Shown here: piece by piece, positions 2,968 to 20,000 of the stretch | Layout of the letters: every line of letters begins with the position of its first letter | How positions within the stretch are numbered: the first letter of the stretch is position 1 | IMG/VR virus record: IMGVR_UViG_3300031963_009771 | Location: 53,214-73,213 of that record | Reading direction: 5' to 3' (one strand) | Origin: an uncultured virus (IMG/VR IMGVR_UViG_3300031963_009771) | Lineage: Duplodnaviria; Heunggongvirae; Uroviricota; Caudoviricetes | DNA: 20,000 nt | The notes under the pieces: model-generated | The model's database searches: none | Told to the model about the DNA's origin: nothing | Seen by the model: only the letters and a program-made list of their open reading frames with translations | Program-made: the position numbers and the translations under genes

Positions 2968-3243
2968 ATGAAAGTATCTGAATGGAAATTAGAAAATGCG
3001 GTGACAATTGATGATGAAAACATAGTATTTTTATCTGAAATTGAATTAGTAACCAAAAACCCATTAGTTAAAGGGGCAAAGTTTATTGATGCAATTTTTG
3101 ATGATAAATATGCCCCATTAGATGGTGCTACTATATATTTTATGGATACTGAATTGGGATTATTTGAAATCACCGAAGATCCAGAATGGGATGATTCATT
3201 GGAAGTAGCCATTCAAAATTTTAAAGTAAAACTTAAAAATTAA
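2968..3243 (+). CDS. Small acidic hypothetical protein (paralog B)
   Basis: 91-aa ORF, MKVSEWKLEN...QNFKVKLKN. Both termini resemble those of the upstream ORF. Confidence 0.8.
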   Translation: MKVSEWKLENAVTIDDENIVFLSEIELVTKNPLVKGAKFIDAIFDDKYAPLDGATIYFMDTELGLFEITEDPEWDDSLEVAIQNFKVKLKN

Positions 3244-3247
3244 TCAA

Positions 3248-8341: not shown

Positions 8342-9151
8342 ATGAGTTATTACGGTTACGAAAGGGTTTATATCAATGGTTGTTCTCATTCACAAGGTGG
8401 GGGGTTAGAAGGGCCTGAATTAAGGGATGATTCGGTATTCCCTTTATACAAAGAAAAGTATGGAGTGGAGAAGTGGGATGATAGAACCCGTTTGAATTTT
8501 GGACACCACTTATCTGAATTGATTGGGATTCCACACCTCAATGAAGCGGAGAGTGGTGGTGGAACTGAAAGGGTGGTACGAATGGCGTATAATTGGTTAT
8601 TAGATAATTGGGAAATTAGGGATAAGGTAATTCTTATATTAGAAAATCCTGATCCATCCCGTTTTGAAGTTTATTATAGACCGGTTGGGGAATACTTTAT
8701 ACTCAATACAAATATAAATGCGGAGGAGGGTAGTGGCGAATTCGTATCATCTACTCGCAAATACTATGGTAGCGAAACTTCTAATGAGGATAAAATGATA
8801 GAACCTATTTTTATGAAGTGGTTTAACAATCATGCAAATATAAGGGAAAATTGGAAAAGAATTGAAAGGGATTTTGTGGGGTTGTATTCGTTTTGTAAGT
8901 GGAATGGTATAAAAATTTTTGTAATGACGGGTAATAGTGTTACATTTAAGGAATGTTTTGATAAAGAGGATATAATTAAATTTGGTAATGATGAAAAAAA
9001 TTACGACATTTGTAGTTGGGCGATTGATAACCGAAAAACTATATCCGATGAATTAGATGGTAAATCCGCAGATAGACATCCAGGTTATTTTGGACACAAA
9101 GAATATGCAGAATTATTAAAAGTGTTTTTAGATAAAAGATTAAATAAATAA
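8342..9151 (+). CDS. SGNH/GDSL-fold hydrolase/acyltransferase-like protein (GCS variant)
   Basis: VYINGCSHSQG, NEAESGGG and C-terminal DRHPGYFGHKEYA. Confidence 0.78.
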   Translation: MSYYGYERVYINGCSHSQGGGLEGPELRDDSVFPLYKEKYGVEKWDDRTRLNFGHHLSELIGIPHLNEAESGGGTERVVRMAYNWLLDNWEIRDKVILILENPDPSRFEVYYRPVGEYFILNTNINAEEGSGEFVSSTRKYYGSETSNEDKMIEPIFMKWFNNHANIRENWKRIERDFVGLYSFCKWNGIKIFVMTGNSVTFKECFDKEDIIKFGNDEKNYDICSWAIDNRKTISDELDGKSADRHPGYFGHKEYAELLKVFLDKRLNK

Positions 9152-9752: not shown

Positions 9753-10003
9753 TGGAAACTGAAATCAAAGAACAAAAGGAACTAATTCTTAAAAGAGTTC
9801 CACCTGGTGATAGATGGGTATTCGCTAATGCTAATTCAAATAGTATAGTGTATCCATCTCTTACTGATGGTTTAGAAGCTTGGTTTCAGGCTAATGGTCA
9901 CACTCAATTCTATATCGATGCACGAAAGGGAGCTGTGGAAATTGTTCAACAAAAGGAAGTAGAAAAACCTATTACGAAGTATTCTTTATATGGAGAAGAC
10001 TAA
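9752..10003 (+). CDS. Hypothetical protein
   Basis: 83-aa ORF (KRVPPGDRW motif) with TAATG coupling to the upstream gene. Confidence 0.75.
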   Translation: METEIKEQKELILKRVPPGDRWVFANANSNSIVYPSLTDGLEAWFQANGHTQFYIDARKGAVEIVQQKEVEKPITKYSLYGED

Positions 10004-10445
10004 AACATTAGTAATTTGTAGTGGGTATTTTAATCCGATTCATAAGGGACATATAGAATACTTAAAAAGAAGTAAGGAGTTAGGTGATTTTCTTTATGTA
10101 ATTGTGAATAACGATTACCAAAGAGAAATGAAAGGTAGTAGACCTTTTATGGAAGCCGATGAAAGAAAACTAATTGTAGAATCTTTGGGATTTGTTGATA
10201 GAGCTATGGTGGCGATTGATGAAGAAAAAACCGTCAATCGTAGTATCAAATGGATTATGATGAATATTGGAAAAGAATTTAATCGTTATATATTTGCTAA
10301 TGGAGGTGATCAAAATCGAAACACAGTTGGTGAAACCAAATTGTGTGAAGAGTTGGGAATAGAATTGGCAGATGGATTGGGTGATAAAATTCAATCTTCA
10401 TCAAAACTTATAAAAGATTCAGATGAGTTTTATAATAGGAAATAA
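9990..10445 (+). CDS. Cytidylyltransferase-like (HxGH) nucleotidyltransferase, TagD/RfaE-domain-II-like
   Basis: SGYFNPIHKGH, VIVNND, KGSRPFM...ER, FANGGD and KIQSSS. Confidence 0.88.
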   Translation: MEKTKTLVICSGYFNPIHKGHIEYLKRSKELGDFLYVIVNNDYQREMKGSRPFMEADERKLIVESLGFVDRAMVAIDEEKTVNRSIKWIMMNIGKEFNRYIFANGGDQNRNTVGETKLCEELGIELADGLGDKIQSSSKLIKDSDEFYNRK

Positions 10446-10737
10446 ATGTGTAGATTGTTTAGATACCAGTTGTGTAAGCGTTTGCCCGATTGATTGTATT
10501 CATGGGCCCATTTATACAGACCGAATGGGGTGGGAAGTATCTCAAATGAATGATGAAGATAAGAAGGGAAAACAACTATATATTAATCCTGCGGAGTGTA
10601 TAAATTGTGGAGCGTGTGTACCCGAATGCCCGGTTGATGCGATTTATTCCGATGAAAAGGAGGCGATTTCATTAGGAGACGAGGTATCGGTCCACAAAAA
10701 CTATGAATTCTTTGGACAGTTTTATCAAAAAAAATAA
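10423..10737 (+). CDS. Dicluster (7Fe/FdxA-type) ferredoxin
   Basis: CVDCLDTSCVSVCPIDC and LYINPAECINCGACVPECPVDAI follow the Azotobacter FdI-like Cys spacing, with an insertion between the clusters. Confidence 0.92.
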   Translation: MSFIIGNKCVDCLDTSCVSVCPIDCIHGPIYTDRMGWEVSQMNDEDKKGKQLYINPAECINCGACVPECPVDAIYSDEKEAISLGDEVSVHKNYEFFGQFYQKK

Positions 10738-11095: not shown

Positions 11096-12355
11096 GTGGG
11101 GTTAGTAAATGAGGCTTTCTGCCTTGCTCCGTGGATACATACATATAATGGAACATTAGGAGAAAGGAGAGTATGTTGTATTTCATCATTAGAATTAGGA
11201 AAGGGTTCAACTCTTTCCGATTCCTTTAATGGGGATGAAATAAGACAGCTGAGAAAGGATATGATTGCGGGAAAACAAATAGAATCCTGTAATCTATGTA
11301 ATAACCAACCTTATGAAAACACTTACAAATTTCATTTTAACGGTAATTACAAATACCTAATAGATGAAGTTATAAATAATACAAAAGAAGATGGGACTTA
11401 TACAGGTCTTCCCATCACATTTGATTACCGAAATGATTTATGCAATTTAAAATGTAGAATATGTGGTAGTTCTGCATCATCATCAATCAGAGCAGAATTC
11501 ACTAAATTCGGTAATTATCAAAAGGAATCGGAATTACTTTCCGGCACCGAATCCCGCAATCTTTCGGAACTTCAATTAGAAGAAATGTTATTCCTAATTG
11601 AAAATACCGATATAAAAGAAATCTATTGGGCGGGAGGAGAACCTCTTTTCAATATTAATCACTATAAGGTTTTAAACCGTCTTATTGAATTAGGAAAAAC
11701 CAATGTATTCTTACGATACAATACCAATTTTACTAACATTACATTTAGGGAGTTTAATTTTTTAGATATAATTGCTCACTTTGATAGAGTTCACTTTTAT
11801 TTTTCGCAAGATGGTATAGGTGAAACTGCTGAGTATTTGAGATATGGACAGAATTTTTCCAAATGGGATTTTAACATTCAGCAAGTAGTAAAAATAAAAA
11901 AACCAAAATGGGAATTTTATGTTCATTCTGTAATGACAATTCTCACTCTTTTAGATGTTGAAAAGATCATTGAATATGTTCACGAATATGAAAACATAGG
12001 AATTAGTTTTTTCAAATGTTTTTCTGATGAATATAAAGATATACTTACACCTGATTTTTACCCAAAAGAAATTATTACAAAAATAATTGAGGAGAAAATC
12101 CAAATTATAGATAATCAATATAGTGGAAGTAGAAAATTAGTTGCAGTAAACTTTTTGGAAAATATGTTAAAAACATTTAATCAAATAGAAAGGAGTGATA
12201 TACAAACTAAACTTTCATTTGGTTATATAGATGATTTGGATAAATTGAGACCATACTCAAGAACATTTTCTGATTTTATAAAAGAAGGTAATAATGAACT
12301 TTTCCAATATTTAAGTAAAAGAAAAGCCGAAATTTCAGATAATGATAATAACTGA
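11096..12355 (+). CDS. Radical SAM protein with N-terminal twitch/SPASM-like Cys cluster
   Basis: CNLKCRIC (CX3CX2C), WAGGEP, YNTN and SQDG, with N-terminal FCLAPW...VCC...SCNLC. GTG start. Confidence 0.9.
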   Translation: MGLVNEAFCLAPWIHTYNGTLGERRVCCISSLELGKGSTLSDSFNGDEIRQLRKDMIAGKQIESCNLCNNQPYENTYKFHFNGNYKYLIDEVINNTKEDGTYTGLPITFDYRNDLCNLKCRICGSSASSSIRAEFTKFGNYQKESELLSGTESRNLSELQLEEMLFLIENTDIKEIYWAGGEPLFNINHYKVLNRLIELGKTNVFLRYNTNFTNITFREFNFLDIIAHFDRVHFYFSQDGIGETAEYLRYGQNFSKWDFNIQQVVKIKKPKWEFYVHSVMTILTLLDVEKIIEYVHEYENIGISFFKCFSDEYKDILTPDFYPKEIITKIIEEKIQIIDNQYSGSRKLVAVNFLENMLKTFNQIERSDIQTKLSFGYIDDLDKLRPYSRTFSDFIKEGNNELFQYLSKRKAEISDNDNN

Positions 12356-13091
12356 TTTCCTTCATAATAATAAGAATCACAAAGAATTAAATCAACTTTG
12401 GAATAATTCCACACCATTTCCTAATTTAGAATTTAAGAATTTTTTGAGTGATGAAATGGTAGTTTCGATGAAAAACGAAATTACAGATTCTTATAGAAAG
12501 CATAACCATTTACTCAAAAACTTTACCCGAAATGGTTCTCATATGGTTGAGTTATGTGAAGCGGGTGATGTTTGCCCAATAGCACATCAACTTATTGGGG
12601 ATTTACATTCAAAGTATTTTATAGATTGGTTGGAAAGAGTTACGGGAATAGATGGATTGATACCCGATCCGTGGCTTGTAGGAGCATCTTATATGAGATG
12701 TTATAGAGGTGATTCATTGCAAGTCCATTCTGATTTTAATTGGAATGAAAAGCTAAAACTTCATAGAAAATTAACATTAGTAATTTACCTAAATCCTGAA
12801 TGGGAAGAAAATTGGAATGGTGATATACAATTGTGGGATAAAGATAGAACACACTGCGTTCAAAAATACTATCCTACTAATGGAAACCTCGTTTTATGGG
12901 AGTATTCCAAATACGCTTTTCATGGACACCCACATCCACTAAATTGCCCAGAACACATAACAAGAGATGGAATTAGATTATTTTATTATATATCTGATGC
13001 TGAACACAAATCAGATGACCCTCCACACCGTTCACTTTATTGGTTCGATGAAAAAACTAAAGAACCTTTCGATAAAAAGAAATCCTTTTAA
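12342..13091 (+). CDS. 2OG-Fe(II) oxygenase (prolyl-hydroxylase-like)
   Basis: PFP near the N-terminus, TGIDGLIPDP, LQVHSDFN (HxD), IYLNPEW...GDIQLW, AFHG and RDGIRLFYY. Confidence 0.9.
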   Translation: MIITDFLHNNKNHKELNQLWNNSTPFPNLEFKNFLSDEMVVSMKNEITDSYRKHNHLLKNFTRNGSHMVELCEAGDVCPIAHQLIGDLHSKYFIDWLERVTGIDGLIPDPWLVGASYMRCYRGDSLQVHSDFNWNEKLKLHRKLTLVIYLNPEWEENWNGDIQLWDKDRTHCVQKYYPTNGNLVLWEYSKYAFHGHPHPLNCPEHITRDGIRLFYYISDAEHKSDDPPHRSLYWFDEKTKEPFDKKKSF

Positions 13092-13114: not shown

Positions 13115-13205
13115 ATATTTATAGTTGTAAGAAATAAGTTTCCTTAAATAGTTTCATAAATTGTTATAGTAATCGGAAAAATAGGTTTCCATAACAAAAA
13201 TTTAT
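13115..13205 (+). promoter_or_regulatory. Leader of the envelope operon: ATATTTATA motif, three AAATA(A/-/G)GTTTC repeats and a hairpin reaching the start codon
   Basis: Motif at 13115-13123. Repeats at 13132-13143, 13146-13156 and 13179-13191. TTGTTAT(13161-67)/ATAACAA(13191-97) and GGAAA(13175-79)/TTTCC(13186-90) are complementary. Confidence 0.45.
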
Positions 13206-13859
13206 ATGAAACAAAAGGTCTATTTATTAGTCGATACTCTATCGGATAAATTATTATCAGCATTTTTACGATTAGCCCTACTTTGGGTATTCGTTGCACT
13301 CTCAATTCAGGTTTTTTTCGTTAGTTTAACCTTTATGGGTAAGGATGATTTAATTCGAACTTACTCCAATTGGTTTACTCATACTTTCGATGGTAATTTC
13401 AAAAACTCACCCGGTAACATTTGGTATAATGAAGATGAGCATATATGGGTTGAGAGCGTTACCAATAATGTTAAGATAGGAAATTTAGCCGGCAATAAAA
13501 ATTTAGAGTTCGGTGTAAAGAATATATTAGAAGAGTATTTGCAAGAAAAAGGTTATAACCTATCCCCATCAGCAGTAAACAAATTACAGGTTCAAATTGT
13601 ATTTTTAGATGTATTAACAACTAAAAAGAACATTTCTGTTTTCCACTCCAATGAGGAAGAGGTTGTAATAAGATTAAAAGGTATTTTATTTAAAGATGGT
13701 AAGAAGGTAAAAGAAATAGTGGTTGAGGAATCATCTTCCGAAATTTCAATGTCCACCTTAATTGTAGATCAAGGTGGTAAATTTAACCAAACTTCTTTAA
13801 GCAATGCATTGAAGAAAGGTTGCGATAAACTTGTAACCAAATTATTTTCAACCAAATAA
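13206..13859 (+). CDS. Membrane-anchored alpha/beta protein, possibly CsgG/TolB-N/LptE-like fold
   Basis: TM segment (AFLRLALLWVFVALSIQVFFVSLTF), then strand, helix (FGVKNILEEYLQEKGY), a run of strands and a C-terminal helix (SLSNALKKGCDKLVTKL). Fold inferred from the pattern only. Confidence 0.45.
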   Translation: MKQKVYLLVDTLSDKLLSAFLRLALLWVFVALSIQVFFVSLTFMGKDDLIRTYSNWFTHTFDGNFKNSPGNIWYNEDEHIWVESVTNNVKIGNLAGNKNLEFGVKNILEEYLQEKGYNLSPSAVNKLQVQIVFLDVLTTKKNISVFHSNEEEVVIRLKGILFKDGKKVKEIVVEESSSEISMSTLIVDQGGKFNQTSLSNALKKGCDKLVTKLFSTK

Positions 13860-13861
13860 AA

Positions 13862-15547
13862 ATGAAAAAAATCGTATTAGGGTTAATATTATTAGTATTA
13901 ACTTCTCCACTTTTTGCACAATTAACCGTTAATAGAACTATTTTACCGACAACTGGCCCATATAGAGTAGGTGATACTTTGACGGTAAAATATGTTATAG
14001 ATAGAGGAGCTAATCCTGCAACTACTCCACGTTATTTTTGGTTAAGATACCAATATAGTAATAAGGCATTATTGCTATTACCAAATACTACAATTTATTC
14101 GCAGGGTAATTCAGTTCAAACATATTCTACTGAATGGGCTAACTTTAAATTTACACCTAATACCGCTAATAGTTTAAGTGCAAATTCACTTTATGCACAA
14201 TACCAATCATCACCTTGGAATTTTGTAGCCAATACTAATTTTAATGTTGGGCAATTAACAATACAAAGAACTGATGCAAGTATTAGTGGTGAATTCGTAT
14301 CTCAAAAATTTATTATTAAAGATAATGTATCCTACGAAGATATACATAATTTAATATTAGCATATTCAATAGATGCAAGTTCTGCTTATATATCTCCTAT
14401 AACAACTACCGGAAATGTTATATCGTTAGGTAATGTAGCAGGTGGTTCATCTTCTTTCAAAGTAAAGGTGGCATTCCCTTCTACATATACAACGATTACC
14501 GAACATAAAGTTCAGTTAATGAAATTGAAAACTGATGGTAGTGGAGGAATAGATTGGTCACAACAACCAATTGCACAATTACCATTAGATGCGACAGGAG
14601 AAGCGACGTTTACAACACTTAAAATTGGTGATTCAGTTGGTGTATTTGTTGGCCCTACCCTTAACAAAACATTTATGAATAATATAGTAACGGTATCAGA
14701 TGCGTATAAATCATTTTTAGCCGTTTCTCAAACAGATATAAATGGTAACCCAACATACTTTACTTATCCAAATTTGGAAAAAAATGTTGGAAACATTACT
14801 AAAACCGATAATGTATTTAATGAATCAGATTCTTACTATATGTTTGCATATATAATGGGAATAAATGTAGATTCAAATGCTATGTTACCTTCAAGTACCG
14901 CAACTACTGTAAAATGGCAAAGTGGATTATTGAATCAAAGTTGGTTAAATGGAGTTCCGACAAATAAAGTATTAATTACATCTAACACTCAAACCGCTAA
15001 CGCAGTATTTGCTTGGGGTGGTGATTTAAACTGGTCACACTCAACCGATCCGGCAGTTGTGGCACAAAATATAGCAAACAATACAAATGTAACTAATTCC
15101 TTAAACAAAACATCATTTGGTATTTCATCTATGGCTGTAAATTCAACAAGCAATGTTGGATTATATCAAACAAAAGAATACGAAAAAGCAACATTAAGTG
15201 TATCTTCTAAATTGGAAGGTGGTAAAGTAGTATTAACTACAAACTTAACAAAAGCGGATTTAGCAGGATTGGAAGTGATACTACAATATGATGAAACCAA
15301 ATTATCGTTGGATAACATAGTATTTGATGCGGGTTCTACCATTACTAATTTTTCAACAAATAAAGATGGTAGATTAACATTTGGTTCTATTGACCAATTA
15401 AAAACTGCAAGAATTAAAACTGGAACACCATACAAATTAATTTTTACACCAAAAACTAATTTAACAAATACAGCGGGATTATTCTACTTTGTATTATCAG
15501 ATGCAGTAGATGCTGCTGGAAATAAGATAGATTTAATAGTAGAATAA
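13862..15547 (+). CDS. Secreted protein with cohesin-like N- and C-terminal domains and a degenerate dockerin-like region
   Basis: Sec signal MKKIVLGLILLVLTSPLFA|Q. N-domain VGDTLTVKY...WLRYQYSNKAL. Central IVTVSDAY...GNITKTDNVFNESDSY. C-domain DLAGLEVILQYDETKLSLDNI...LTFGSID...KLIFTPK. Confidence 0.6.
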   Translation: MKKIVLGLILLVLTSPLFAQLTVNRTILPTTGPYRVGDTLTVKYVIDRGANPATTPRYFWLRYQYSNKALLLLPNTTIYSQGNSVQTYSTEWANFKFTPNTANSLSANSLYAQYQSSPWNFVANTNFNVGQLTIQRTDASISGEFVSQKFIIKDNVSYEDIHNLILAYSIDASSAYISPITTTGNVISLGNVAGGSSSFKVKVAFPSTYTTITEHKVQLMKLKTDGSGGIDWSQQPIAQLPLDATGEATFTTLKIGDSVGVFVGPTLNKTFMNNIVTVSDAYKSFLAVSQTDINGNPTYFTYPNLEKNVGNITKTDNVFNESDSYYMFAYIMGINVDSNAMLPSSTATTVKWQSGLLNQSWLNGVPTNKVLITSNTQTANAVFAWGGDLNWSHSTDPAVVAQNIANNTNVTNSLNKTSFGISSMAVNSTSNVGLYQTKEYEKATLSVSSKLEGGKVVLTTNLTKADLAGLEVILQYDETKLSLDNIVFDAGSTITNFSTNKDGRLTFGSIDQLKTARIKTGTPYKLIFTPKTNLTNTAGLFYFVLSDAVDAAGNKIDLIVE

Positions 15548-15548
15548 T

Positions 15549-17846
15549 ATGAAAAAACTATTTGTTACAACTATACTTTTATTAATTTCTTTTTTTGGGT
15601 TTGGGCAGTCAATAACGACACCCGAACCCAAAACATTTACACTTAATACTGCTGGACAAGATGCTAGTGGTTTTGTGTTAAGTGGATTTGGTGCAACCGA
15701 AACTCTATTAGTTGCAATCGGATTACCAACTGCACCAACCGGCACAACTTTTTATATGACCCGATTTGATGGTATGACACCAGCAACGGGTTTTAATTTT
15801 AGTGGTAATAAGACCCGTTTAGTTTTTACCGGAACAATGGAAGGCATTAACATCGCATTATCTACCTTAAAAATAAACACAACGGGAACTGCCGGTAACA
15901 TACAAATATCTGTATCAGCAACCGTAAATCCTTCGGGTTATTTCTACAATCCAAACAATGGACACTTTTATAGACCAATATCAACGGGAGCAACTTATAC
16001 AAATGCAAAAACATTATCATCACAACAAACATTTAAAGGTCAAACTGGATATCTTGTAACAATAACTTCTGCGGATGAAGATGCTTTTATTTTTAATAAT
16101 GTACCACAAAGTAATATATGGTTTGCATTAACAGATGAAGTGACAGAAGCTCAATGGAAAATAGATGCGGGTCCTGAGGCTGGAACTCTTATCAAAACAT
16201 CAAATGGACAAACCGCAGGAAACATACAAGGTCAATACAATAACTGGGCAGGTGGTGAACCAAATAACAGTGGTAACGAAGATTACGCTGTAACTAAATG
16301 GGGTGGTGGTTCTCAATGGAACGATTTACCAAACCATTTCAGTTGTGCTTATGTAATTGAATTTGGAACTTGGACAAATCCCGATGACCAGACATTTACT
16401 GAATTCGTTTCTAATAGTGTTATACATTCAAACGGAAACACATTAAGAGCACAATTCACATTTAATTTCGGAAGTAATATAGATGAAACTAAATTTAAAT
16501 CAAAAATTATAACATCCACCGATGATATAACATACAATACAAACAATGCTTTAGTTGCACTTAATGGTATTGGTAGAGTAGATTTAACATCACAAATAGA
16601 TACCTCAACAATTGTAGGTAGTGGATTTAAAGCAACAATCAATCCAGGTCAGGTTGAGTATTCATATACAAATCCAAATGCAAGTTGGTTAGGTGGTAAT
16701 TCTCGATTACTAATTGATATGAGAACATTTGGTAGCACTGTTCCTTCAACAATTACAAATGTAAAAATATTTGATGCTTATGATGGACCGGTAACTTTTA
16801 TAAGTAGTGATGCGGCTTGGGCTCAGTATAATGTTCCTTCACCACTTACAAAAATAACCGATGGAACATCTGCTTTTAACGCTAATATAAGAAATGTAAA
16901 TGGATGGAATACCGATTATGCTTTTACATCAAATCCAACATTTGGACAAAATCGAATAAACAAATACCATAAAATTTCTATGGAGATTACACAAAGTGAT
17001 TTACTTACCTTATTGGGAAGTGTGATTACTGTTGGTGATGTTTATTTGGCATTTAAAGAATTTGCAGATAGGGGTATATTAGGAGATGAAAGTAAGTATT
17101 TTACTTCTGGTATTCAATTTCATAATGCGGATGTAAATGATGATGGGGTATTTGATGAGAGAGATTGTTACACATTATTAACACATTTGCAAGGCACAAC
17201 TTCTTTATGGCCAAATCCACCGGCATTAGGTGATATAATGAAGATTGTAACATCAACGGCGTATGATGGTATTACAAAACAAAATTGGAATACATACACA
17301 GGAATTACGAGATATAGATACCCATTCGCGTTTGCAAGTGGTATTCTAAATTCATATAATTTAGATGTTACTTGGAAGGGTGATGTAAACCTTTCTCATT
17401 CTTCTCAACCAACAGGATTTGTAACATCAGCAAATAGTTCAGTTTCAGAAATAAAATCTATGGCTGTATCATCTAATTCAATAGGAGATGTTGAAGCAGA
17501 AATTATGATGGAAAAAGTTGGTGATAGTGTTATTGCAACAATTGAATTAAATCCAAATGGTAATCAAATAGGAGCAACTCAATTTGATATGTTTTTTGAT
17601 AATTCAGTATTAGAATTTAGTTCAATACAATTTAGTAATACCAATTCTACAAACTTCGGTAGGAATAACGGCTCAACCATCAGCATTGGTAGTTTAAATA
17701 CCTCTGGTGGAACGATTTCTAATATAGGGTATAAAGTTACATTTAAACCAAAGACAACCGTTACAAACCTATTAGGATTGATTTCTGTAAAAAGTGTTGA
17801 AACTCTTAATACATCATTAAATAAAATAAATGTAAAAGTATTGTAA
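15549..17846 (+). CDS. Secreted C-type lectin + dockerin-like + cohesin-like protein
   Basis: Sec signal ...SFFGFG|Q. Lectin at ~15942-16367 (NGHFY, GYLVTITSADED, WFALTD, YNNWAGGEPNN, WND, YVIEF). Ca-loop DVNDDGVFDERD at 17130-17165. C-terminal IGATQFDMFFDNSVLEF...ISIGSL...KVTFKPK. Confidence 0.8.
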   Translation: MKKLFVTTILLLISFFGFGQSITTPEPKTFTLNTAGQDASGFVLSGFGATETLLVAIGLPTAPTGTTFYMTRFDGMTPATGFNFSGNKTRLVFTGTMEGINIALSTLKINTTGTAGNIQISVSATVNPSGYFYNPNNGHFYRPISTGATYTNAKTLSSQQTFKGQTGYLVTITSADEDAFIFNNVPQSNIWFALTDEVTEAQWKIDAGPEAGTLIKTSNGQTAGNIQGQYNNWAGGEPNNSGNEDYAVTKWGGGSQWNDLPNHFSCAYVIEFGTWTNPDDQTFTEFVSNSVIHSNGNTLRAQFTFNFGSNIDETKFKSKIITSTDDITYNTNNALVALNGIGRVDLTSQIDTSTIVGSGFKATINPGQVEYSYTNPNASWLGGNSRLLIDMRTFGSTVPSTITNVKIFDAYDGPVTFISSDAAWAQYNVPSPLTKITDGTSAFNANIRNVNGWNTDYAFTSNPTFGQNRINKYHKISMEITQSDLLTLLGSVITVGDVYLAFKEFADRGILGDESKYFTSGIQFHNADVNDDGVFDERDCYTLLTHLQGTTSLWPNPPALGDIMKIVTSTAYDGITKQNWNTYTGITRYRYPFAFASGILNSYNLDVTWKGDVNLSHSSQPTGFVTSANSSVSEIKSMAVSSNSIGDVEAEIMMEKVGDSVIATIELNPNGNQIGATQFDMFFDNSVLEFSSIQFSNTNSTNFGRNNGSTISIGSLNTSGGTISNIGYKVTFKPKTTVTNLLGLISVKSVETLNTSLNKINVKVL

Positions 17847-18736
17847 TGAGAAAACTAATAATCATATTATCCTTACTTTGTATAACTTTTGTTTCAACCG
17901 CACAAATCCAAAAACCGGATACATTACAATTATCTCCAAAAGAATTGTTTGGTGAAAGCGATGATTGGAACGATGTGGGTATATTACAATCTTATATTGA
18001 TTTTTCAAAAGATGTTCTTTCATCATCAAACCTTTCAGTTGGTATAATTGGAAAGCAGGTATCCACAACTCTTAATTTAGGATATAGTAAATCATCTCTG
18101 AATGGTAAGTGGATACATTCATTCTCAACATCAATAAATCCTATATGGAAATACTACGGTGTTGGTTATGGTTTTAGTAGAAATACCGATAAGAGAACAA
18201 CTACATTACAAACATTCTATTCAACCGATTTTGATTTCCAAAAAGATATTAACTTTTCGTTTATAGATGTATTCAGAACTAAAAAGTGGGGAACATTTGG
18301 ATATAGCTTAATAGCATCAAAAACATATTGGGATTCATATCAAGGTGAATGGGAAGGAAAATATACAGTAAATGCAAATGGTGATTTTTTAGATTTGATT
18401 TATCCCCAAATGCCAGCATCATCCGAAACAACATATAAAGGGATGTTAATGTACACATATACAATTAAAACAAAAAGAGTTAATATATCACCACAAATAT
18501 TTGCTATGAGTGATGTGTATGTAGACTTTAAAGATGGTGAAACTGATTTTGGATATAAAAACGATTTTAATTTAGACCTGTATTATGGAACATCATTTGA
18601 TTGGAAAATAACTAAAAGGTTTATATTAAACACCAATATAAGATATAATACAACTTGGGATAAATTAAGTGAATCAGTTGGGTTCAAAAAAAGTAACCCA
18701 CTATTATTTATGATAGGAACAAACTTTCAATTTTAG
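17846..18736 (+). CDS. Outer-membrane beta-barrel protein
   Basis: Signal peptide ...FVSTA|Q, many alternating aromatic/polar strands (TTLNLGYSKS, GVGYGFS, LMYTYTIK, YYGTSFDWK, LNTNIRYN) and a C-terminal BAM beta-signal-like end MIGTNFQF. Confidence 0.8.
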   Translation: MRKLIIILSLLCITFVSTAQIQKPDTLQLSPKELFGESDDWNDVGILQSYIDFSKDVLSSSNLSVGIIGKQVSTTLNLGYSKSSLNGKWIHSFSTSINPIWKYYGVGYGFSRNTDKRTTTLQTFYSTDFDFQKDINFSFIDVFRTKKWGTFGYSLIASKTYWDSYQGEWEGKYTVNANGDFLDLIYPQMPASSETTYKGMLMYTYTIKTKRVNISPQIFAMSDVYVDFKDGETDFGYKNDFNLDLYYGTSFDWKITKRFILNTNIRYNTTWDKLSESVGFKKSNPLLFMIGTNFQF

Positions 18737-18739
18737 GAT

Positions 18740-19096
18740 ATGAAATGGAGTAAAATTATAATAATGTGTTGTATGGTTTTTATGATTTCTTGTTATAAAG
18801 AAGAAATAGAGCCAACTCCTCAGCCAAAACCTTTGGTAGATATTTTTACATATACTGAAACATCAGTAAATGATGGACAAGAAATTATGTTTAGATTAAA
18901 TTCAGATAGTTTGTATATAATAAAATTAATTGATAAACCAACGAATCAGGTGGTAAGTAAAGAAAAGATTTTTGGTAAAATTGGTGATAATAAAATAAAG
19001 ATTTACACTAAAACCCTACAAAGTAAATATTTATATTTGGTTTTGGAAAATGTTAATAGAAAAGAATTAAAAAAAACAACATTAATACTTAAATAA
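18740..19096 (+). CDS. Lipoprotein with a small Ig-like (T9SS-CTD-like) domain
   Basis: Lipobox MISC (Cys18) followed by YKEE, then IKLID..NQVVSKE...GDNKIKIYTKTL...YLVL. Confidence 0.75.
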   Translation: MKWSKIIIMCCMVFMISCYKEEIEPTPQPKPLVDIFTYTETSVNDGQEIMFRLNSDSLYIIKLIDKPTNQVVSKEKIFGKIGDNKIKIYTKTLQSKYLYLVLENVNRKELKKTTLILK

Positions 19097-19097
19097 A

Positions 19098-19466
19098 ATG
19101 AAAAAACTATTTTTAATAGCAATTGTAACAATAACCTTAACCGGTTGTTTTAAAGAAGATTTGGTTAATCCAATCGTAAATGTTACACCAGATTTAAAAA
19201 TAGAATCTACTGCTGGTATCAAATTAGCATCATCCTTTGTAACCGATGAGGTAAGTATGAATGTAAAATTAGAATCAGCGGGGACTATTAATGTAAAGAT
19301 TTTAGATATATCTAATAGAGTAGTATCAAAAGAAACTATGAATGTTAGTGCAGGTGATAATATATTAAAAGTATATACGAGAGCTTTACCATCATCAGCA
19401 TATAGAATTGCATTATATAATAGTAATAATGTATTAATTGGTATAACAGATTTTAACAAACTATAA
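19098..19466 (+). CDS. Lipoprotein with T9SS type-A CTD-like Ig domain (paralog of the upstream gene)
   Basis: Lipobox LTGC (Cys17) followed by FKED. INVKILDISNRVV...AGDNILKVYTRALPSSAYRIAL resembles the Por secretion-tail pattern (I.D..G..V...G.N...L..G.Y). Confidence 0.8.
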   Translation: MKKLFLIAIVTITLTGCFKEDLVNPIVNVTPDLKIESTAGIKLASSFVTDEVSMNVKLESAGTINVKILDISNRVVSKETMNVSAGDNILKVYTRALPSSAYRIALYNSNNVLIGITDFNKL

Positions 19467-19477
19467 ATTACAATAAA

Positions 19478-19801
19478 ATGTCAGAAGAATTAGAACAAAA
19501 CAATGATGGAACATGGTCGGGATTAAAAAAGACCATTATAGGGGTTGCAACGACCGCAGTTATGGGTTTAGGAACTTGGGGAGTAACTCAACTAACAGGT
19601 GGGGATAAAGAAGAAGCACCTGTGCAACAAGCAGCTCCAGTAATTAACATTACAAACTCAAACCAACAATCTCAGGCAGCAGGTGGTACAACTAAAATTA
19701 TCGAAAGAGAAAGAGTAGTAGAAAAGCCAGCAGCTGAAAAAGCTAAACCTGCTAAGAAGAAAGAAGGTGATGAATTTAAAGAAGAAGCTCCTAAATGGTA
19801 A
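19478..19801 (+). CDS. Single-pass membrane protein with a low-complexity Q/A/P/K/E tail
   Basis: KKTIIGVATTAVMGLGTWGVTQL hydrophobic segment, then a disordered tail ending in W. Confidence 0.75.
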   Translation: MSEELEQNNDGTWSGLKKTIIGVATTAVMGLGTWGVTQLTGGDKEEAPVQQAAPVINITNSNQQSQAAGGTTKIIERERVVEKPAAEKAKPAKKKEGDEFKEEAPKW

Positions 19802-19807
19802 TAAACT

Positions 19808-20000
19808 ATGAATAATCAACAACCGACTGGATTTAAAGATTTATTAAATGCAATGATGAAACGCAGATGGTTCATTACTGCAATTGTTTTGGGTGGCTTT
19901 ATGGTCATTATTATAGGTATTTTTGCATCTATTGTGGGGCAAACTGCAATTAGTGGAGAGTGGAAAGAACTTCTTCTATTATTGTTAGGTGCTTTCATCG
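19808..20000 (+). CDS. Multi-pass membrane protein (partial, runs off the window)
   Basis: ATG at 19808 is open to the end: MNNQQPTGFKDLLNAMMKRRWFITAIVLGGFMVIIIGIFASIVGQTAISGEWKELLLLLLGAFI. Confidence 0.8.
   Translation, partial: MNNQQPTGFKDLLNAMMKRRWFITAIVLGGFMVIIIGIFASIVGQTAISGEWKELLLLLLGAFI

What the first reader, a model, noticed from the sequence alone, without database searches (positions are those of the whole stretch)
13206..20000. Candidate phage-encoded cell-surface display/adhesion apparatus spanning the whole Gram-negative envelope
Seen: eight consecutive, tightly packed genes (gaps of at most 11 nt) all encode envelope-targeted proteins. They are a TM-anchored alpha/beta protein, two large Sec-signal proteins, a beta-barrel ending in ...GTNFQF, two lipoproteins and two inner-membrane proteins. 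Established: a C-terminal aromatic beta-signal is read by BAM, lipoboxes are read by Lgt/LspA, and cleavable Sec signals are not expected on cytoplasm-assembled virion parts. Inference: the phage builds a multi-protein structure on the infected cell (barrel/CsgG-like channel or anchor, lipoprotein adaptors and a lectin-tipped cohesin/dockerin scaffold). Possible roles are aggregating infected cells with new hosts or particles, masking receptors (superinfection exclusion) or deterring grazers. I know of no characterised phage system with this composition. The operon continues past the window.
Basis: partly seen in the sequence, partly recalled or inferred. Interest (0 to 1): 0.9.

Follow-up and report, generated by a model that had tools for sequence, protein, structure and literature searches.

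The report
Phage-encoded host envelope lectin-display module
A large lake-water phage that probably infects Flavobacterium-type bacteria carries a tightly conserved block of genes whose products all go to the host's membranes and surface, apparently to hang a sugar-binding protein on the infected cell; its purpose has not been tested.

Summary
Window 13206-20000 carries eight abutting + strand genes (gaps of 11 nt or less), and every product has an envelope-targeting signal. The signals are kept in relatives.

The contig is a T4-like myovirus fragment, not a bacterial chromosome or chimera. The eight genes keep their order in 70-80 of 80 related viral contigs. In relatives the block continues with a CsgG-fold protein and two more exported proteins, one ending in an outer-membrane barrel.

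What I tested:
- P3 is a C-type lectin with invariant EPN/WND, plus a cohesin-like end.
- P2 shares P3's C-terminal module.
- P4 is an outer-membrane barrel. It is 80% identical to a complete relative, against a 55% median for shared proteins.
- P5 and P6 are paralogous lipoproteins with the Bacteroidota surface-export motif.
- A complex model places P6 on P3's cohesin-like domain (score 0.79, best control 0.00).
- Cultured Flavobacterium phage immuto carries a reduced version.

Best reading: an outer-envelope lectin display complex built on the infected cell. Its purpose is untested, and a role in lysis timing is the main rival.

Two literature searches on this composition listed no paper describing the module. 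This scan has noted the same module before on other DNA (74 notes, at least 61 genomes).

The parts
13115..13123 (+). Promoter-like motif ATATTTATA, 91 nt upstream of P1 (a second, looser copy at 13091)
   Evidence: 6 of 10 + strand copies of ATATTTATA in the 73-kb contig lie in the 2.9% of it that is intergenic, including before the tail tube and SSB genes; the motif ATA[TC]TTAT[AT] lies within 150 nt upstream of P1 in 27 of 43 unique relatives, of P10 in 17 of 50 and of P11 in 14 of 27; background is 0.027 per 150 nt. Its function as a promoter is inferred.
13206..13859 (+). P1, 217 aa: N-terminal membrane anchor plus an alpha/beta domain of the YajG/LptE/CsgG-like kind
   Evidence: Pfam PF03923 Lipoprotein_16, E 1.8e-5, 25.0 bits, exactly at the cut-off. 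One hydrophobic segment, residues 14-32 and beyond. An Ignavibacteriales protein (L087:10666-11280) matches both my P1 profile (1.6e-5) and my P10 profile (4.5e-7). P1 against P10 directly gives only a shared C-terminal helix motif (hhalign 22.6%).
13862..15547 (+). P2, 561 aa: signal peptide, head of unknown fold (21-267), then the C-terminal module shared with P3 (268-561), ending in a cohesin-like domain
   Evidence: hhalign of P2 268-561 against P3 485-765: 99.5%, E 4.4e-23. No Pfam hit for P2 itself or 14 relatives. The head gave only weak leads (0.85) to Ig-like cohesin/dockerin proteins.
15549..17846 (+). P3, 765 aa: signal peptide, N-terminal domain, C-type lectin, middle domain, EF-hand-like loop, cohesin-like end
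15957..16361 (+). C-type lectin domain of P3 (residues about 137-271), with EPN (237-239), E244 and WND (257-259)
   Evidence: Pfam Lectin_C 23.1 bits against a cut-off of 22.6. It matches 15 of 15 P3 members, best E 9.2e-7. The profile against PDB hits CEL-I at E 1.1e-4 and mannose-binding proteins. E237, P238, N239, E244, W257, N258 and D259 are invariant in 31 sequences.
17124..17195 (+). EF-hand/dockerin-like loop of P3 (NADVNDDGVFDERDCYTLLTHLQG, residues 526-549)
   Evidence: Read from the sequence. N526, A527, D528, V529, G533, F535, E537, D539, L543, L547 and G549 are invariant. Pfam Dockerin_1 matched none of 30 P2/P3 members at E 0.01.
17496..17843 (+). Cohesin-like C-terminal domain of P3 (residues about 650-765); predicted docking site of P6
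   Evidence: Pfam Cohesin matched 8 of 15 P3 relatives, best E 2.3e-5, but not the window's own copy. The profile of the C-terminal module against PDB hits the cohesin of scaffoldin B, 4ums, at E 0.0032. Interface residues 652-654, 682-684, 686-687, 709, 739-747 and 764-765.
17846..18736 (+). P4, 296 aa: signal peptide, conserved 40-residue N-terminal extension, outer-membrane beta-barrel ending in NFQF
   Evidence: AlphaFold2 gives a barrel at mean pLDDT 60.8. Foldseek and VIA hit many unrelated barrels (Z 12-15: CymA, OmpG, PelB porin), so no family can be assigned. The barrel is homologous to the C-terminal barrel of P12 (95.2%, E 2.5e-8). P4 is 80% identical to G002's copy, rank 5 of 49 shared proteins.
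18740..19096 (+). P5, 118 aa: lipoprotein (C-YKEE), paralogue of P6
   Evidence: hhalign of P5 against P6: 99.2%, E 1.9e-19. Lipobox in 63 of 76 members.
19098..19466 (+). P6, 122 aa: lipoprotein with a surface-export motif (C-FKED) and a DUF3244 / T9SS-CTD-like beta-sandwich; predicted to bind P3's cohesin-like domain
   Evidence: DUF3244 matched 13 of 15 members and Por_Secre_tail 2 of 15. Cys17 is invariant and K19 at least 90% conserved. C-x-K-(D/E)2 is present in 25 of 53 unique members; the motif definition comes from PMC5080379. Complex model 0.79 against 0.00.
19478..19801 (+). P7, 107 aa: bitopic inner-membrane protein with a Pro/Ala/Lys/Glu-rich tail ending in ...EEAPKW; part of the core trio P7-P10-P12
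   Evidence: C-terminal Trp in 75 of 75. Homologue in phage immuto at E 2.2e-18. Present in 77 of 80 immuto-type loci next to P10. The N-in topology is inferred from the KK before the membrane segment.
19808..20000 (+). P8, first 64 aa only (cut by the contig end): in relatives a 2-TM inner-membrane protein of 200-230 aa with an Asp-rich, four-Cys C-terminal domain

Best explanation
The eight genes are the first two thirds of a phage-encoded operon set of about 12 genes. It is probably transcribed from the phage's own promoters, and its products are exported by the host's Sec, Lgt/LspA-Lol and BAM pathways. They assemble in the outer envelope of an infected Bacteroidota cell.

Proposed working:
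1. The paralogous lipoproteins P5 and P6 are lipidated. Because they carry the Bacteroidota lipoprotein export motif C-x-K-(D/E)2, they are flipped to the cell surface.
2. The barrels P4 and, downstream, P12 are inserted by BAM. The CsgG-fold protein P10 forms a ring or channel beside them. P10, P12 and the inner-membrane, periplasm-spanning P7 form the conserved core trio.
3. The secreted proteins P2 and P3 carry different heads on one shared C-terminal module (EF-hand-like loop, linker domain, cohesin-like domain). They are captured by the lipoproteins through the cohesin-like domain.
4. P3 thereby presents a Ca-dependent EPN-type (mannose/GlcNAc-type) lectin at the cell envelope, so that infected cells bind glycans of neighbouring cells, particles or their own surface.

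Shown here: the targeting signals and their conservation, the folds and families, synteny, strong purifying selection on P4, and model support for the P6-P3 contact.

Inferred: surface exposure, the route of P2 and P3 across the outer membrane, ring formation by P10, the timing of expression, and the biological purpose.
For: Phage origin and integrity:
- Phage hallmark genes lie on the same contig.
- 84 of 87 ORFs lie on one strand, and GC is even.
- Gene order is collinear with a complete 237-kb relative that has Gp23 capsid and terminase.

Synteny, by tblastn in 80 loci found with P4: P4 in 80, P5 in 76, P3, P6 and P7 in 75 each, P2 in 73, P8 in 71, P1 in 70. Some loci are cut by contig ends.

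Continuation with P9-P12 in relatives. Signals are conserved.

Lectin. The C-terminal module shared by P2 and P3. Cohesin: 8 of 15 P3 relatives by Pfam and PDB scaffoldin cohesin at E 0.0032.

P6 and P3:
- ipSAE was 0.72, 0.79 and 0.79 in three runs; the best of 3 controls was 0.00.
- The mark was reached by 116 of 157 solved complexes and 2 of 215 mismatched pairs. These counts hold only roughly, since my own alignments were used.
- Partner pLDDT was at least 84, and the runs agreed in at least 96% of contacts.
- P6 has no sequence relative in the PDB, so the pass is unlikely to come from memory.
- The interface falls on conserved blocks of both proteins.

Surface-export motif: window P6 is C-FKED and P5 is C-YKEE. 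The optimal signal C-X-K-(D/E)2-X comes from PMC5080379 (passages read). It is present in 25 of 53 P6 members.

P10 as a CsgG fold:
- Foldseek hits CsgG at E 7e-7.
- VIA gives Z 12.7, rmsd 3.7 A and 169 aligned residues to 6l7a_A. The eight best rows are all CsgG, and the next other fold scores 9.8.
- An Ignavibacteriales homologue (my P10 profile E 1e-48) passes Pfam CsgG at 28.6 bits against a cut-off of 20.8.
- ESM-feature neighbours are CsgG/LpoB clusters at 0.94.

Selection: P4 is 80% identical to G002's copy. The median is 55% over 49 shared proteins, the DNA polymerase is 62% and UvsX 85%.

Surface location by analogy: in cultured phage immuto and in a related fragment, the cohesin protein carries a T9SS C-terminal sorting domain (Por_Secre_tail 34.6 and 43 bits).

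Promoter-like motif shared with the tail tube gene.
Against: - No experiment exists.
- The two structure models are of middling confidence (pLDDT 60.8 and 61.8, from shallow alignments with all members above 70% identity).
- P2 and P3 carry no T9SS domain (0 of 30) and no other recognised outer-membrane export signal. They might therefore stay in the periplasm, where an EPN lectin could bind peptidoglycan GlcNAc.
- The window's own P3 does not itself reach Pfam Cohesin at E 0.01. Dockerin_1 matched none of the 30 P2/P3 members.
- Phage P10 has no lipobox and no direct Pfam CsgG hit. No CsgA, B, E or F was found.
- Only 25 of 53 P6 members have the strict export motif.
- P8 and P9 have holin-like topology. 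An endolysin lies within 5 kb upstream of P1 in 11 of 80 loci, and the literature reads phage CsgG as a lysis-timing pore (PMC9004378).
- RNA-library contigs identical to parts of the block do not prove transcription.
- P10-P12 are not on this contig. Their presence in this phage is inferred from relatives.
Confidence: 0.5

Rival explanations
1. Lysis or egress device. The CsgG-fold ring and the barrels perforate or weaken the outer membrane. P8 and P9 act as holin-like inner-membrane proteins. P7 together with the lipoproteins acts like a spanin pair. The block would then time or complete lysis of a Bacteroidota host, for which classical spanins are rarely recognised.
For: - P9 (87 aa, 2 TM, charged C-terminus) and the 2-TM start of P8 have class-II-holin-like topology (topology inferred).
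- P7 is an inner-membrane protein with a periplasmic tail, followed in the gene order by no other partner than outer-membrane proteins.
- An endolysin (PG_binding_1 + GH19) lies within 5 kb upstream of P1 in 11 of 80 loci, and directly next to it in 5.
- Earlier notes of this scan report the module next to lysis genes in other phage lineages (not checked here).
- PMC9004378 proposes a lysis-timing role for phage CsgG (passages read).
- The immuto P7 homologue and window 1148-1459 both touch phrog_2658 'hol-like'.
Against: - In 69 of 80 loci no endolysin lies within 5 kb. In the complete relative G002 the endolysin is about 15 kb from the block.
- A lectin, two cohesin-like proteins and surface-type lipoproteins have no known place in lysis.
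- No Pfam, PHROG or NCBIfam holin or spanin family matched.
- The lipoproteins, at 118-122 aa with a folded beta-sandwich, are unlike short o-spanins (recalled).
Confidence: 0.2
2. Superinfection exclusion or receptor masking. The same assembly exists to cover or alter surface glycans and receptors of the infected cell, so that other phages, or the phage's own progeny, do not adsorb to infected cells and debris.
For: - The assembly is the same as in the best explanation.
- The exposed parts evolve fast (median identity to the window: P5 45%, P3 53%, P2 58%). The presumed machinery is conserved (P4 81%, P10 79%).
- Heads are exchanged between relatives: an LCCL insertion in 4 of 15 P3 members.
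- Phage lipoproteins that block receptors are known (T5 Llp, Cor; recalled).
Against: - Nothing here distinguishes masking from adhesion.
- A 12-gene apparatus is far larger than any known exclusion system.
- No PADLOC search was run.
Confidence: 0.15
3. Periplasmic scaffold. P5 and P6 stay on the inner face of the outer membrane and tether P2 and P3, whose lectin binds GlcNAc of peptidoglycan. This braces or reorganises the envelope of the infected cell.
For: - P2 and P3 have no recognised signal for crossing the outer membrane.
- EPN-type lectins bind GlcNAc (recalled).
- Only 25 of 53 P6 members carry the strict surface-export motif.
Against: - The window's own P5 and P6 both carry C-x-K-(D/E)2.
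- The related immuto-type cohesin protein has a T9SS sorting domain, which sends cargo to the surface.
- The barrels and the CsgG fold suggest transport across the outer membrane.
Confidence: 0.08
4. Nutrient-uptake auxiliary genes. The barrels act as porins and the lectin/cohesin proteins as glycan-capturing surface proteins, boosting the infected cell's supply.
For: - One relative (L071) has a SusC-like TonB-dependent receptor (CarbopepD_reg_2 + Plug + OMP_b-brl_3) and a lipoprotein inserted inside the block.
- PMC7029224 considers uptake through phage CsgG pores.
Against: - No glycoside hydrolase or inner-membrane transporter family was found in the block.
- That insertion was seen in 1 of the 5 loci I listed in full.
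Confidence: 0.04
5. Virion parts or an annotation artefact. The proteins would be tail-fibre-like structural proteins, and the 'signals' chance hydrophobic N-termini.
For: - Lectin and Ig-like domains occur on phage fibres and capsid decorations (recalled).
- The promoter-like motif is shared with the tail tube gene.
Against: - Signal peptides, lipoboxes and the C-terminal Phe are conserved across dozens of homologues.
- Barrel and CsgG folds are membrane folds.
- No PHROG structural family matched.
Confidence: 0.03

Closest known systems
csgG/csgF ('curli', type VIII secretion) clusters of pelagimyophages (HTVC008M group) and OM43 phage Melnitz (PMC7029224, PMC9004378; passages read)
   Same: T4-like aquatic myoviruses carry a CsgG-type outer-membrane protein with a few exported partners. 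The host lacks the system, and the function is unknown. 'Sibling capture', uptake and lysis timing have been proposed.
   Different: - Those clusters hold recognisable CsgG and CsgF of proteobacterial type and about three small unknown proteins.
- Here the CsgG-fold protein has no lipobox and no direct Pfam hit, and no CsgF was found.
- This block adds barrels, a lectin, cohesin-like proteins, surface-type lipoproteins and three inner-membrane proteins.
- The probable host is Bacteroidota.
Curli secretion channel CsgG of E. coli (PDB 4uv3, 6l7a)
   Same: It is the best structural match of P10, over the whole mature protein (VIA Z 12.7).
   Different: About 10% identity. P10 has no lipid anchor, its oligomer and membrane hairpins are untested, and it has no curli subunits or CsgE/F. 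P10 is not in this window.
Cohesin-dockerin assemblies (cellulosomal and non-cellulosomal scaffoldins)
   Same: A cohesin-like domain is used as a docking module for building a multi-protein surface complex. A Ca-loop resembling half a dockerin lies in the same proteins.
   Different: - The predicted partner of the cohesin-like domain is a lipoprotein beta-sandwich (DUF3244-like), not a dockerin.
- Pfam Dockerin_1 was not matched.
- The assembly is encoded by a virus and lacks enzymes.
Barrel plus alpha/beta lipoprotein pairs of the outer membrane: LptD-LptE and PelB-PelC
   Same: P10 also resembles PelC (Z 9.3) and LptE (Z 8.7). P1 touches the YajG family. Each is encoded beside a barrel (P1 with P4, P10 with P12). 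The PelB porin is among the tied best matches of P4 (Z 13.7).
   Different: - The matches are weaker than to CsgG, and P4's barrel matches are unspecific.
- No polysaccharide or LPS synthesis genes are linked.
Bacteroidota surface lipoprotein complexes with the lipoprotein export signal (Sus-like systems; PMC5080379)
   Same: The lipoproteins carry C-x-K-(D/E)2 right after the lipidated Cys and are expected to carry binding proteins at the cell surface.
   Different: There is no SusC/SusD pair in this window. The lipoproteins are small single-domain proteins encoded by a phage.
Phage-encoded outer-membrane and exclusion proteins (lambda Lom and Bor, T5 Llp, phi80 Cor; recalled, not searched)
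   Same: Phage genes whose products are inserted in the host envelope during infection or lysogeny.
   Different: Those are single genes. This is a conserved block of about 12 genes with paralogous pairs and a core trio.

Membership tests
CsgG / curli type VIII secretion channel (applies to P10, downstream of the window in relatives) | CsgG fold over the whole mature protein | tested here: met
   Foldseek hits 4uv2/4uv3 at E 7e-7, TM 0.41-0.49. VIA gives Z 12.7, rmsd 3.7 A and 169 aligned residues. The eight best rows are all CsgG and the next other fold scores 9.8. The model's pLDDT is only 61.8.
CsgG / curli type VIII secretion channel | Sequence membership (Pfam PF03783 above its gathering score) | tested here: not met
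   No Pfam hit at E 0.01 for P10 of L020 or L014, or for immuto gp017. Membership is met only transitively: the Ignavibacteriales homologue L087:9977-10669 scores 28.6 bits against a cut-off of 20.8 and matches my P10 profile at 1e-48.
CsgG / curli type VIII secretion channel | N-terminal lipobox (CsgG is a lipoprotein) | tested here: not met
   P10 members have a signal peptide ending ..AQ/T. My loose lipobox pattern fired in 3 of 70. The Ignavibacteriales homologue does have ..NAC-GS.
CsgG / curli type VIII secretion channel | Partners CsgF, CsgE and curlin subunits CsgA/B in the locus | tested here: not met
   No such Pfam family appeared among the module proteins scanned.
CsgG / curli type VIII secretion channel | Nonameric ring with a 36-strand membrane barrel | not testable with these tools
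C-type lectin domain (P3) | Pfam Lectin_C above its gathering score | tested here: met
   23.1 bits against 22.6 for the window's P3. It matches 15 of 15 members, best E 9.2e-7. The PDB profile hits CEL-I and mannose-binding proteins.
C-type lectin domain (P3) | Ca/sugar site motifs EPN (or QPD) and WND | tested here: met
   E237, P238, N239, E244, W257, N258 and D259 are invariant in 31 sequences. That these motifs define the site, and that EPN means mannose-type sugars, is recalled.
C-type lectin domain (P3) | Two conserved disulfides of the canonical animal domain (recalled) | tested here: not met
   Residues 137-271 of the window's P3 hold a single Cys (C266), read.
Cohesin (P2 and P3 C-termini) | Pfam Cohesin PF00963 match | tested here: inconclusive
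   It matched 8 of 15 P3 members (best E 2.3e-5), but not the window's own P3, and 0 of 15 P2 members. The profile of the shared module hits a scaffoldin cohesin, 4ums, at E 0.0032. P2 is tied to P3 by hhalign at 99.5%.
Cohesin-dockerin pair | A dockerin (duplicated Ca-binding segment, Pfam Dockerin_1) as the partner | tested here: not met
   Dockerin_1 matched 0 of 30 P2/P3 members at E 0.01. Only one EF-hand-like loop is seen in P3, and it is degenerate in P2. The modelled partner is the lipoprotein P6.
Type IX secretion cargo | C-terminal sorting domain (Por_Secre_tail) on the secreted proteins | tested here: not met
   It matched 0 of 30 P2/P3 members and 2 of 15 P6 members at E up to 3.7e-4. 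It is present on the cohesin proteins of phage immuto (34.6 bits) and of L086 (43 bits).
Bacteroidota surface-exposed lipoproteins | Lipobox plus export signal C-X-K-(D/E)2-X (PMC5080379) | tested here: met
   Window P6 is LTGC-FKED and P5 is MISC-YKEE. Cys17 is invariant in P6. 25 of 53 unique P6 members have the strict motif. The P5 count in that call is unreliable, because the pattern caught an earlier CC. Surface exposure itself is not testable here.
BAM-dependent outer-membrane beta-barrel (P4) | Signal peptide, barrel fold and C-terminal aromatic residue | tested here: met
   (Phe in 79 of 79). No specific barrel family could be assigned.
Holin / spanin lysis proteins (P5-P9) | Match to a known holin or spanin family, and adjacency to an endolysin | tested here: inconclusive
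   No family hit. An endolysin lies within 5 kb in 11 of 80 loci. The topology of P8 and P9 is holin-like by inspection.

The most novel reading that the evidence does not exclude
The block encodes a virus-built trans-envelope secretion-and-display machine. P7 (inner membrane, periplasm-spanning), the P10 CsgG-fold ring and the P12/P4 barrels form a conduit distinct from the host's own systems. This conduit exports the lectin/cohesin subunits. Phage-made surface lipoproteins then capture those subunits, so that an infected cell becomes sticky for the glycans of uninfected kin. This would realise the 'sibling capture' proposed for pelagimyophage curli genes, but with lectins instead of amyloid.
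Probability: 0.2. Interest if true: 0.9.

Novelty: new variant of a known kind. Interest (0 to 1): 0.72.

Why it matters
Phages are known to put single proteins into the host envelope, and a few marine myoviruses carry a partial curli cluster of unknown use. This block has about a dozen exported proteins, recurs in hundreds of metagenomic sequence clusters (883 clusters for P4 alone), and holds a member as conserved as the recombinase and tail sheath. That implies an important and unstudied step in how large aquatic phages handle Bacteroidota cells.

If it displays a lectin, it would change how infected cells interact with particles, neighbours and other phages in lakes and coastal water. It would also be the first viral use of cohesin-type docking.

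It is directly testable, because cultured Flavobacterium phage immuto carries the core (gp013-gp019).

Tried and rejected
The 85-nt leader of this window folds no better than shuffles (z -1.18, 22 of 200 shuffles as good). Upstream regions of relatives align poorly apart from the promoter-like motif. Rfam gave no hit in the window.
P3's C-terminal module was not found in 301 genomes of the order of G003, either as a single protein or as a profile. There was no positive control, so this shows little.
- Context of distant P4 relatives. Queries P0140 and P0124 found no confirmed locus in IMG/VR.
- Nucleotide search of the whole window against cultured phages found no match. P4 by tblastn against cultured phages found no match.
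- PHROGs matched none of the eight window proteins. For P8-P12 of L020 it gave only one weak hit, P12 to phrog_3793 of unknown function (E 3.9e-4). NCBIfam gave nothing near a cut-off.
- Profiles of P1, P2, P6 and P10 against PDB sequences gave nothing meaningful.
- P1 and P10 as clear paralogues: hhalign gave only 22.6% over 19 columns.
- The motif upstream of P6 (29 of 50) lies inside P5. I put it down to the conserved codons for ..YLY.., not to a promoter.
- The antisense ORF 19082-19459 is a shadow of P6.
- RNA libraries. Three metatranscriptome runs from three studies hold contigs identical to parts of P1, P2, the P2/P3 junction and the P7/P8 junction. DNA carry-over cannot be excluded, no silent control stretch could be laid, and parts without cover mean nothing.
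- ESM-feature search of the P2 head gave only sub-threshold leads (0.85).

Full report
**Where the window lies.** The window is the last 20 kb of a 73,213-bp linear IMG/VR virus record. CheckV rates the record 38% complete. The record is a myovirus. PHROGs finds tail sheath, tail tube and baseplate hub at its start. It then finds dCMP deaminase, SSB, UvsX-like recombinase, exonuclease, DnaB-like helicase, methyltransferases, both RNR subunits, a family-B DNA polymerase and a clamp loader. In my own ORF call, 84 of 87 ORFs lie on the + strand. GC stays at 0.28-0.36 through the window.

Against a relative that CheckV calls complete (G002, 237,307 bp), 59 of the 87 ORFs have a tblastn match, in largely the same order. 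G002 and a second relative, G001, carry a Gp23-type capsid gene and a large terminase. The fragment G000 has neither.

The upstream part of the window holds typical large-phage accessory genes:
- an AdoMet decarboxylase
- an HNH endonuclease
- two 2OG-Fe(II) oxygenases
- a radical SAM protein
- a ferredoxin
- a cytidylyltransferase

**The observation.** Eight + strand ORFs run from 13206 to the contig end, with gaps of 2, 1, -1, 3, 1, 11 and 6 nt. I call them P1 to P8.
- P1 (217 aa) has one long N-terminal hydrophobic segment. Its alpha/beta domain touches Pfam Lipoprotein_16 (YajG) exactly at the cut-off (25.0 bits, E 1.8e-5).
- P2 (561 aa) and P3 (765 aa) begin with signal peptides ending FAQ and GFGQ.
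- P4 (296 aa) has a signal peptide and ends in GTNFQF.
- P5 (118 aa) and P6 (122 aa) have lipoboxes.
- P7 (107 aa) has one membrane segment after an acidic N-terminus and KK.
- P8 is cut after 64 aa, inside its second membrane segment.

**It is not chance.** A search of IMG/VR with P4 gave 97 confirmed loci, of which the best 80 were kept. They lie on contigs of up to 334 kb. By tblastn, the eight proteins occur in the same order in most of the 80: P4 in 80, P5 in 76, P3, P6 and P7 in 75 each, P2 in 73, P8 in 71 and P1 in 70. Several loci are cut by contig ends. The neighbouring radical SAM and 2OG genes occur in none.

The targeting signals are kept in homologues (my own heuristics):
- Signal-like N-termini: P2 63 of 63, P3 67 of 68, P4 77 of 79.
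- Lipobox: P5 63 of 76, P6 73 of 74.
- Terminal Phe in P4: 79 of 79.
- Terminal Trp in P7: 75 of 75.

**What follows beyond the contig end.** In relatives the block continues as follows:
- full-length P8 (200-230 aa, two membrane segments, an Asp-rich C-terminal domain with four Cys)
- P9 (about 87 aa, two membrane segments, charged end)
- P10 (about 240 aa, signal peptide)
- P11 (about 270 aa, signal peptide)
- P12 (430-540 aa: signal peptide, small N-domain, Ser/Ala/Lys/Glu-rich linker, C-terminal barrel)

After P12 the genes turn to the other strand. Extra genes are inserted in some relatives:
- a SusC-like TonB-dependent receptor plus a lipoprotein in L071
- a class-3 lipase in L038
- a small lipoprotein in L020

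**The proteins.**

*P3.* Its C-type lectin domain passes Pfam's cut-off and is found in 15 of 15 members. Its profile hits CEL-I and mannose-binding proteins in the PDB. The sugar/Ca motifs EPN, E and WND are invariant in 31 sequences. The domain holds only one Cys, so the canonical disulfides are absent. Four longer relatives carry an added LCCL domain.

*The module shared by P2 and P3.* Pfam Cohesin matches the C-terminus of 8 of 15 P3 members, though not the window's own copy. P2 residues 268-561 align with P3 residues 485-765 at 99.5% probability, E 4.4e-23. The two proteins therefore carry different heads on one shared module: an EF-hand-like loop, a linker domain with W-GD-N-SHS, and a cohesin-like domain. 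A profile of that module hits one PDB sequence below E 0.01, a cohesin of cellulosomal scaffoldin B (E 0.0032). Pfam Dockerin_1 and Por_Secre_tail match none of the 30 P2/P3 members.

*P5 and P6.* They are paralogues (99.2%, E 1.9e-19). P6 matches DUF3244 in 13 of 15 members and the T9SS sorting domain weakly in 2 of 15.

*P4.* It folds as a beta-barrel at mean pLDDT 60.8. It resembles many unrelated barrels equally well (Foldseek TM 0.3-0.45; VIA Z 12-15 for CymA, OmpG, PelB porin and others). I can therefore name only the class. Its barrel is homologous to the C-terminal barrel of P12 (95.2%, E 2.5e-8).

The P4 family is abundant but narrow. There are 883 clusters at 90% identity. None of the 120 listed carries a name other than 'hypothetical protein' or any Pfam domain. 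Among 1.84 billion representatives at 50% identity there are only 29 hits, about seven of them full-length.

*P10.* It folds at pLDDT 61.8. CsgG is its best structural match by Foldseek (E 7e-7) and by VIA (Z 12.7, rmsd 3.7 A, 169 aligned residues). The eight best rows are all CsgG. Cj1090c scores 9.8, PelC 9.3 and LptE 8.7. ESM-feature neighbours are CsgG/LpoB clusters at 0.94.

Phage P10 itself gets no Pfam hit. However, a homologue in an Ignavibacteriales MAG matches my P10 profile at 1e-48. That homologue has a lipobox and passes Pfam CsgG (28.6 bits against a cut-off of 20.8). The next gene in that bacterial operon matches both my P1 and my P10 profiles, which ties P1 to the same fold class.

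**A new piece of mechanism: the lipoproteins as anchors.** Both window lipoproteins carry, right after the lipidated Cys, the motif C-x-K-(D/E)2 (C-FKED, C-YKEE). In Capnocytophaga this motif is sufficient to send a lipoprotein to the cell surface, and it is shared by other Bacteroidota (PMC5080379, passages read). In the P6 family, 25 of 53 unique members have the strict motif and 33 of 53 have two or more acidic residues there.

In cultured phage immuto the cohesin protein is fused to a T9SS sorting domain. In this lineage the cohesin-like proteins lack that domain, while two small lipoproteins with a sorting-domain-like sandwich appear. I therefore tested whether the two parts touch.

The complex tool was given P3 485-765 and mature P6, each with its alignment.
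- It returned scores of 0.72, 0.79 and 0.79, against 0.00 for the best of three controls.
- Partner pLDDT was at least 84, and at least 96% of contacts were shared between runs.
- The mark was reached by 116 of 157 solved complexes and 2 of 215 mismatched pairs. The tool warns that these counts hold only roughly with my own alignments.
- All contact residues of P3 lie in the cohesin-like domain and include the invariant D684, G743, L744 and S746.
- Those of P6 include the invariant I68, V76, S77, K78, L90, Y93, L97 and P98.
- P6 has no sequence relative in the PDB, so the pass is unlikely to be memory of a solved complex.

The model supports binding; it does not show it. By paralogy I infer that P5 pairs with P2. 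That pairing was not tested.

**Selection and expression.** Between G000 and G002, 49 proteins align over at least 70% of their length, with a median identity of 55%. P4 is 80% identical, rank 5. That is next to UvsX (85%) and tail sheath (79%), and above the DNA polymerase (62%), clamp loader (66%) and tail tube (64%). P1 is 66%, P2 57%, P7 50% and P5 47%. So a conserved machine part sits beside fast-evolving, presumably exposed parts.

The 9-mer ATATTTATA occurs 10 times on the + strand of the contig. Six of these copies lie in the 2.9% of the contig that is intergenic. They precede, among others, the tail tube gene, the SSB gene and P1 (window 13115). In relatives a slightly looser form lies within 150 nt upstream of P1 in 27 of 43 unique regions, of P10 in 17 of 50 and of P11 in 14 of 27. 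The background is 0.027 per 150 nt. I read it as a phage promoter heading two or three transcription units. This is inference.

Contigs from three metatranscriptome libraries of three studies are identical to parts of the block, which is compatible with expression but does not prove it.

**Range of the module.** Among cultured phages, only the four Flavobacterium phage immuto records match P10 (59% identity) and the lectin (37%). The genes gp013-gp019 of immuto are, in order:
- a lectin
- an unknown exported protein
- a cohesin plus T9SS sorting domain
- a P7 homologue (E 2.2e-18)
- a P10 homologue (E 3e-89)
- a P12 homologue (E 3.5e-15)
- a P1-like protein (E 3.4e-8)

A search with immuto's P10 found 117 further viral loci. 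In the 80 kept, P10 is in 80, P7 in 77, P12 in 73, a P3-like protein in 58, P1-like in 35, P8 in 32 and P9 in 25. P2, P4, P5, P6 and P11 are in none.

So the core is the trio P7-P10-P12: an inner-membrane tether, a CsgG-fold protein and a barrel. P2, P4, P5, P6 and P11, four of which lie in this window, are additions of this jumbo-phage lineage. The nearest cultured relative by UvsX is Microcystis phage Mel-JY01 (54%), which gave no P4 or P10 match. G001 has P4 at 90% identity but no clear match to this contig's DNA polymerase. The block therefore seems to move between phage lineages.

**Bacterial genomes.** A pattern scan of one genome per 185,579 species with the P10 alignment gave four loci:
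- two 2.6-2.7-kb MAG contigs that look like phage fragments (one holds P7 and a P1 fragment beside P10)
- the Ignavibacteriales operon
- a weak Halobacillus hit

The P10 profile matched none of 300 other genomes of the order of G003. It did match G003's own fragment, which served as a positive control. I found no known Bacteroidota locus that the operon copies.

The host assignment to Bacteroidota is inferred from:
- the signal-peptide style
- the export motif
- the T9SS domain in sister modules
- the SusC-type insertion
- immuto's host

**Rivals.** The main rival is a role in lysis. P8 and P9 have holin-like topology, and P7 plus outer-membrane lipoproteins recall spanins. An endolysin lies within 5 kb upstream of P1 in 11 of 80 loci, and next to it in 5. 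The Melnitz paper argues that phage CsgG may time lysis. Against this, 69 of 80 loci have no endolysin nearby, and a lectin with docking modules has no place in known lysis systems.

The other rivals are exclusion by receptor masking, a periplasmic scaffold, nutrient uptake and virion parts. They are weighed in their own entries.

**Literature and earlier notes.** The closest thing in print is the partial curli cluster (csgG, csgF and three small genes) of pelagimyophages and of OM43 phage Melnitz. Its function is unknown (PMC7029224 and PMC9004378, passages read).

My searches were:
- 'phage' + 'cohesin domain' + 'C-type lectin' + 'Flavobacterium' (3 of 4 terms, 28 papers, 10 listed)
- 'phage-encoded' + 'CsgG' (11 papers)
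- 'immuto' + 'Flavobacterium' (8 papers)

Going by titles and abstract openings, none listed a paper that describes this module. Supplements of the immuto-related papers were not looked at.

This scan has met the module before on other DNA: 74 notes in at least 61 genomes hold the words cohesin, CsgG and lectin. Eight of the look-alike notes for P4 were shown to me. I used them as leads.
- I confirmed the CsgG fold, the cultured carrier and the lipoprotein partner myself.
- I could not confirm the structured leader RNA in this window.
- I could not confirm the descent from host T9SS adhesins.

**Verdict.** The thing is a real, widespread, strongly selected phage module for the host envelope. 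It is best read as a lectin display complex anchored by phage lipoproteins and served by a CsgG-fold/barrel core. Its location, export route and purpose are still untested.

Noticed in passing
window 2678, 10739, 13091, 13115; contig-wide: The 9-mer ATATTTATA is strongly enriched in intergenic DNA (6 of 10 + strand copies in 2.9% of the contig; 1 copy on the other strand). It precedes the tail tube, SSB and several small genes. It is a candidate phage promoter resembling T4's late TATAAATA (recalled).
   Followed up: partly
window 1980-2678, 7169-7567, 9990-10445, 10423-10737, 11096-12355, 12342-13091: A run of auxiliary enzymes lies upstream of the module: two 2OG-Fe(II) oxygenases, AdoMet decarboxylase, a cytidylyltransferase-like protein, a 2x[4Fe-4S] ferredoxin and a radical SAM protein. 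The radical SAM and 2OG pair is absent from all 80 related loci.
   Followed up: no
window 2709-2966 and 2968-3243: Two adjacent small ORFs (85 and 91 aa) look like tandem paralogues: both begin M.ISE.K.EN and end FKVKLK. No family hit.
   Followed up: no
window 6270-7007 and 8342-9151; L020 17947-18570 (- strand): Three unannotated proteins share an N-terminal G-C/D-S-F/H motif reminiscent of SGNH/GDSL hydrolases. No Pfam or PHROG hit.
   Followed up: no
L071 13122-16792; L038 13196-15597; L014 11644-12363: The module is a landing site for extra cargo in relatives. These are a SusC-like TonB-dependent receptor with a 398-aa lipoprotein, a class-3 lipase with two unknown proteins, and a 239-aa protein touching a tail fibre/lysozyme PHROG.
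   Followed up: partly
L087 9977-17413 (Ignavibacteriales MAG, 232-kb contig): A bacterial operon holds a CsgG-family lipoprotein, a P1/P10-like protein, an 825-aa protein with a weak transglutaminase-like match, a CHASE2-adenylate/guanylate cyclase and a 428-aa protein ending ..RWRF. It is a possible cellular relative of the phage core.
   Followed up: partly
G001 (record of L008) against G000: P4 is 90% identical, yet this contig's family-B DNA polymerase has no clear match in G001 (best E 5.7e-4; G001 is 75% complete). Either that region is missing, or the module is shared by phages with different replication genes.
   Followed up: no
contig 19774-20892 (L002 2774-3892): The UvsX-like recombinase is closest, among cultured phages, to Microcystis phage Mel-JY01 (54%). 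Mel-JY01 infects a cyanobacterium and lacks P4 and P10, so the host assignment to Bacteroidota rests on the envelope signals, not on core-gene kinship.
   Followed up: partly
window 19082-19459 (- strand): A 125-aa antisense ORF fully overlaps P6. It is conserved only because P6 is, so it is a shadow ORF.
   Followed up: yes
L020 and others, 1-5000 (upstream of P1 in relatives): In many relatives the module follows a stretch full of short spurious ORFs that looks like a tRNA gene array. It was not scanned with ARAGORN.
   Followed up: no
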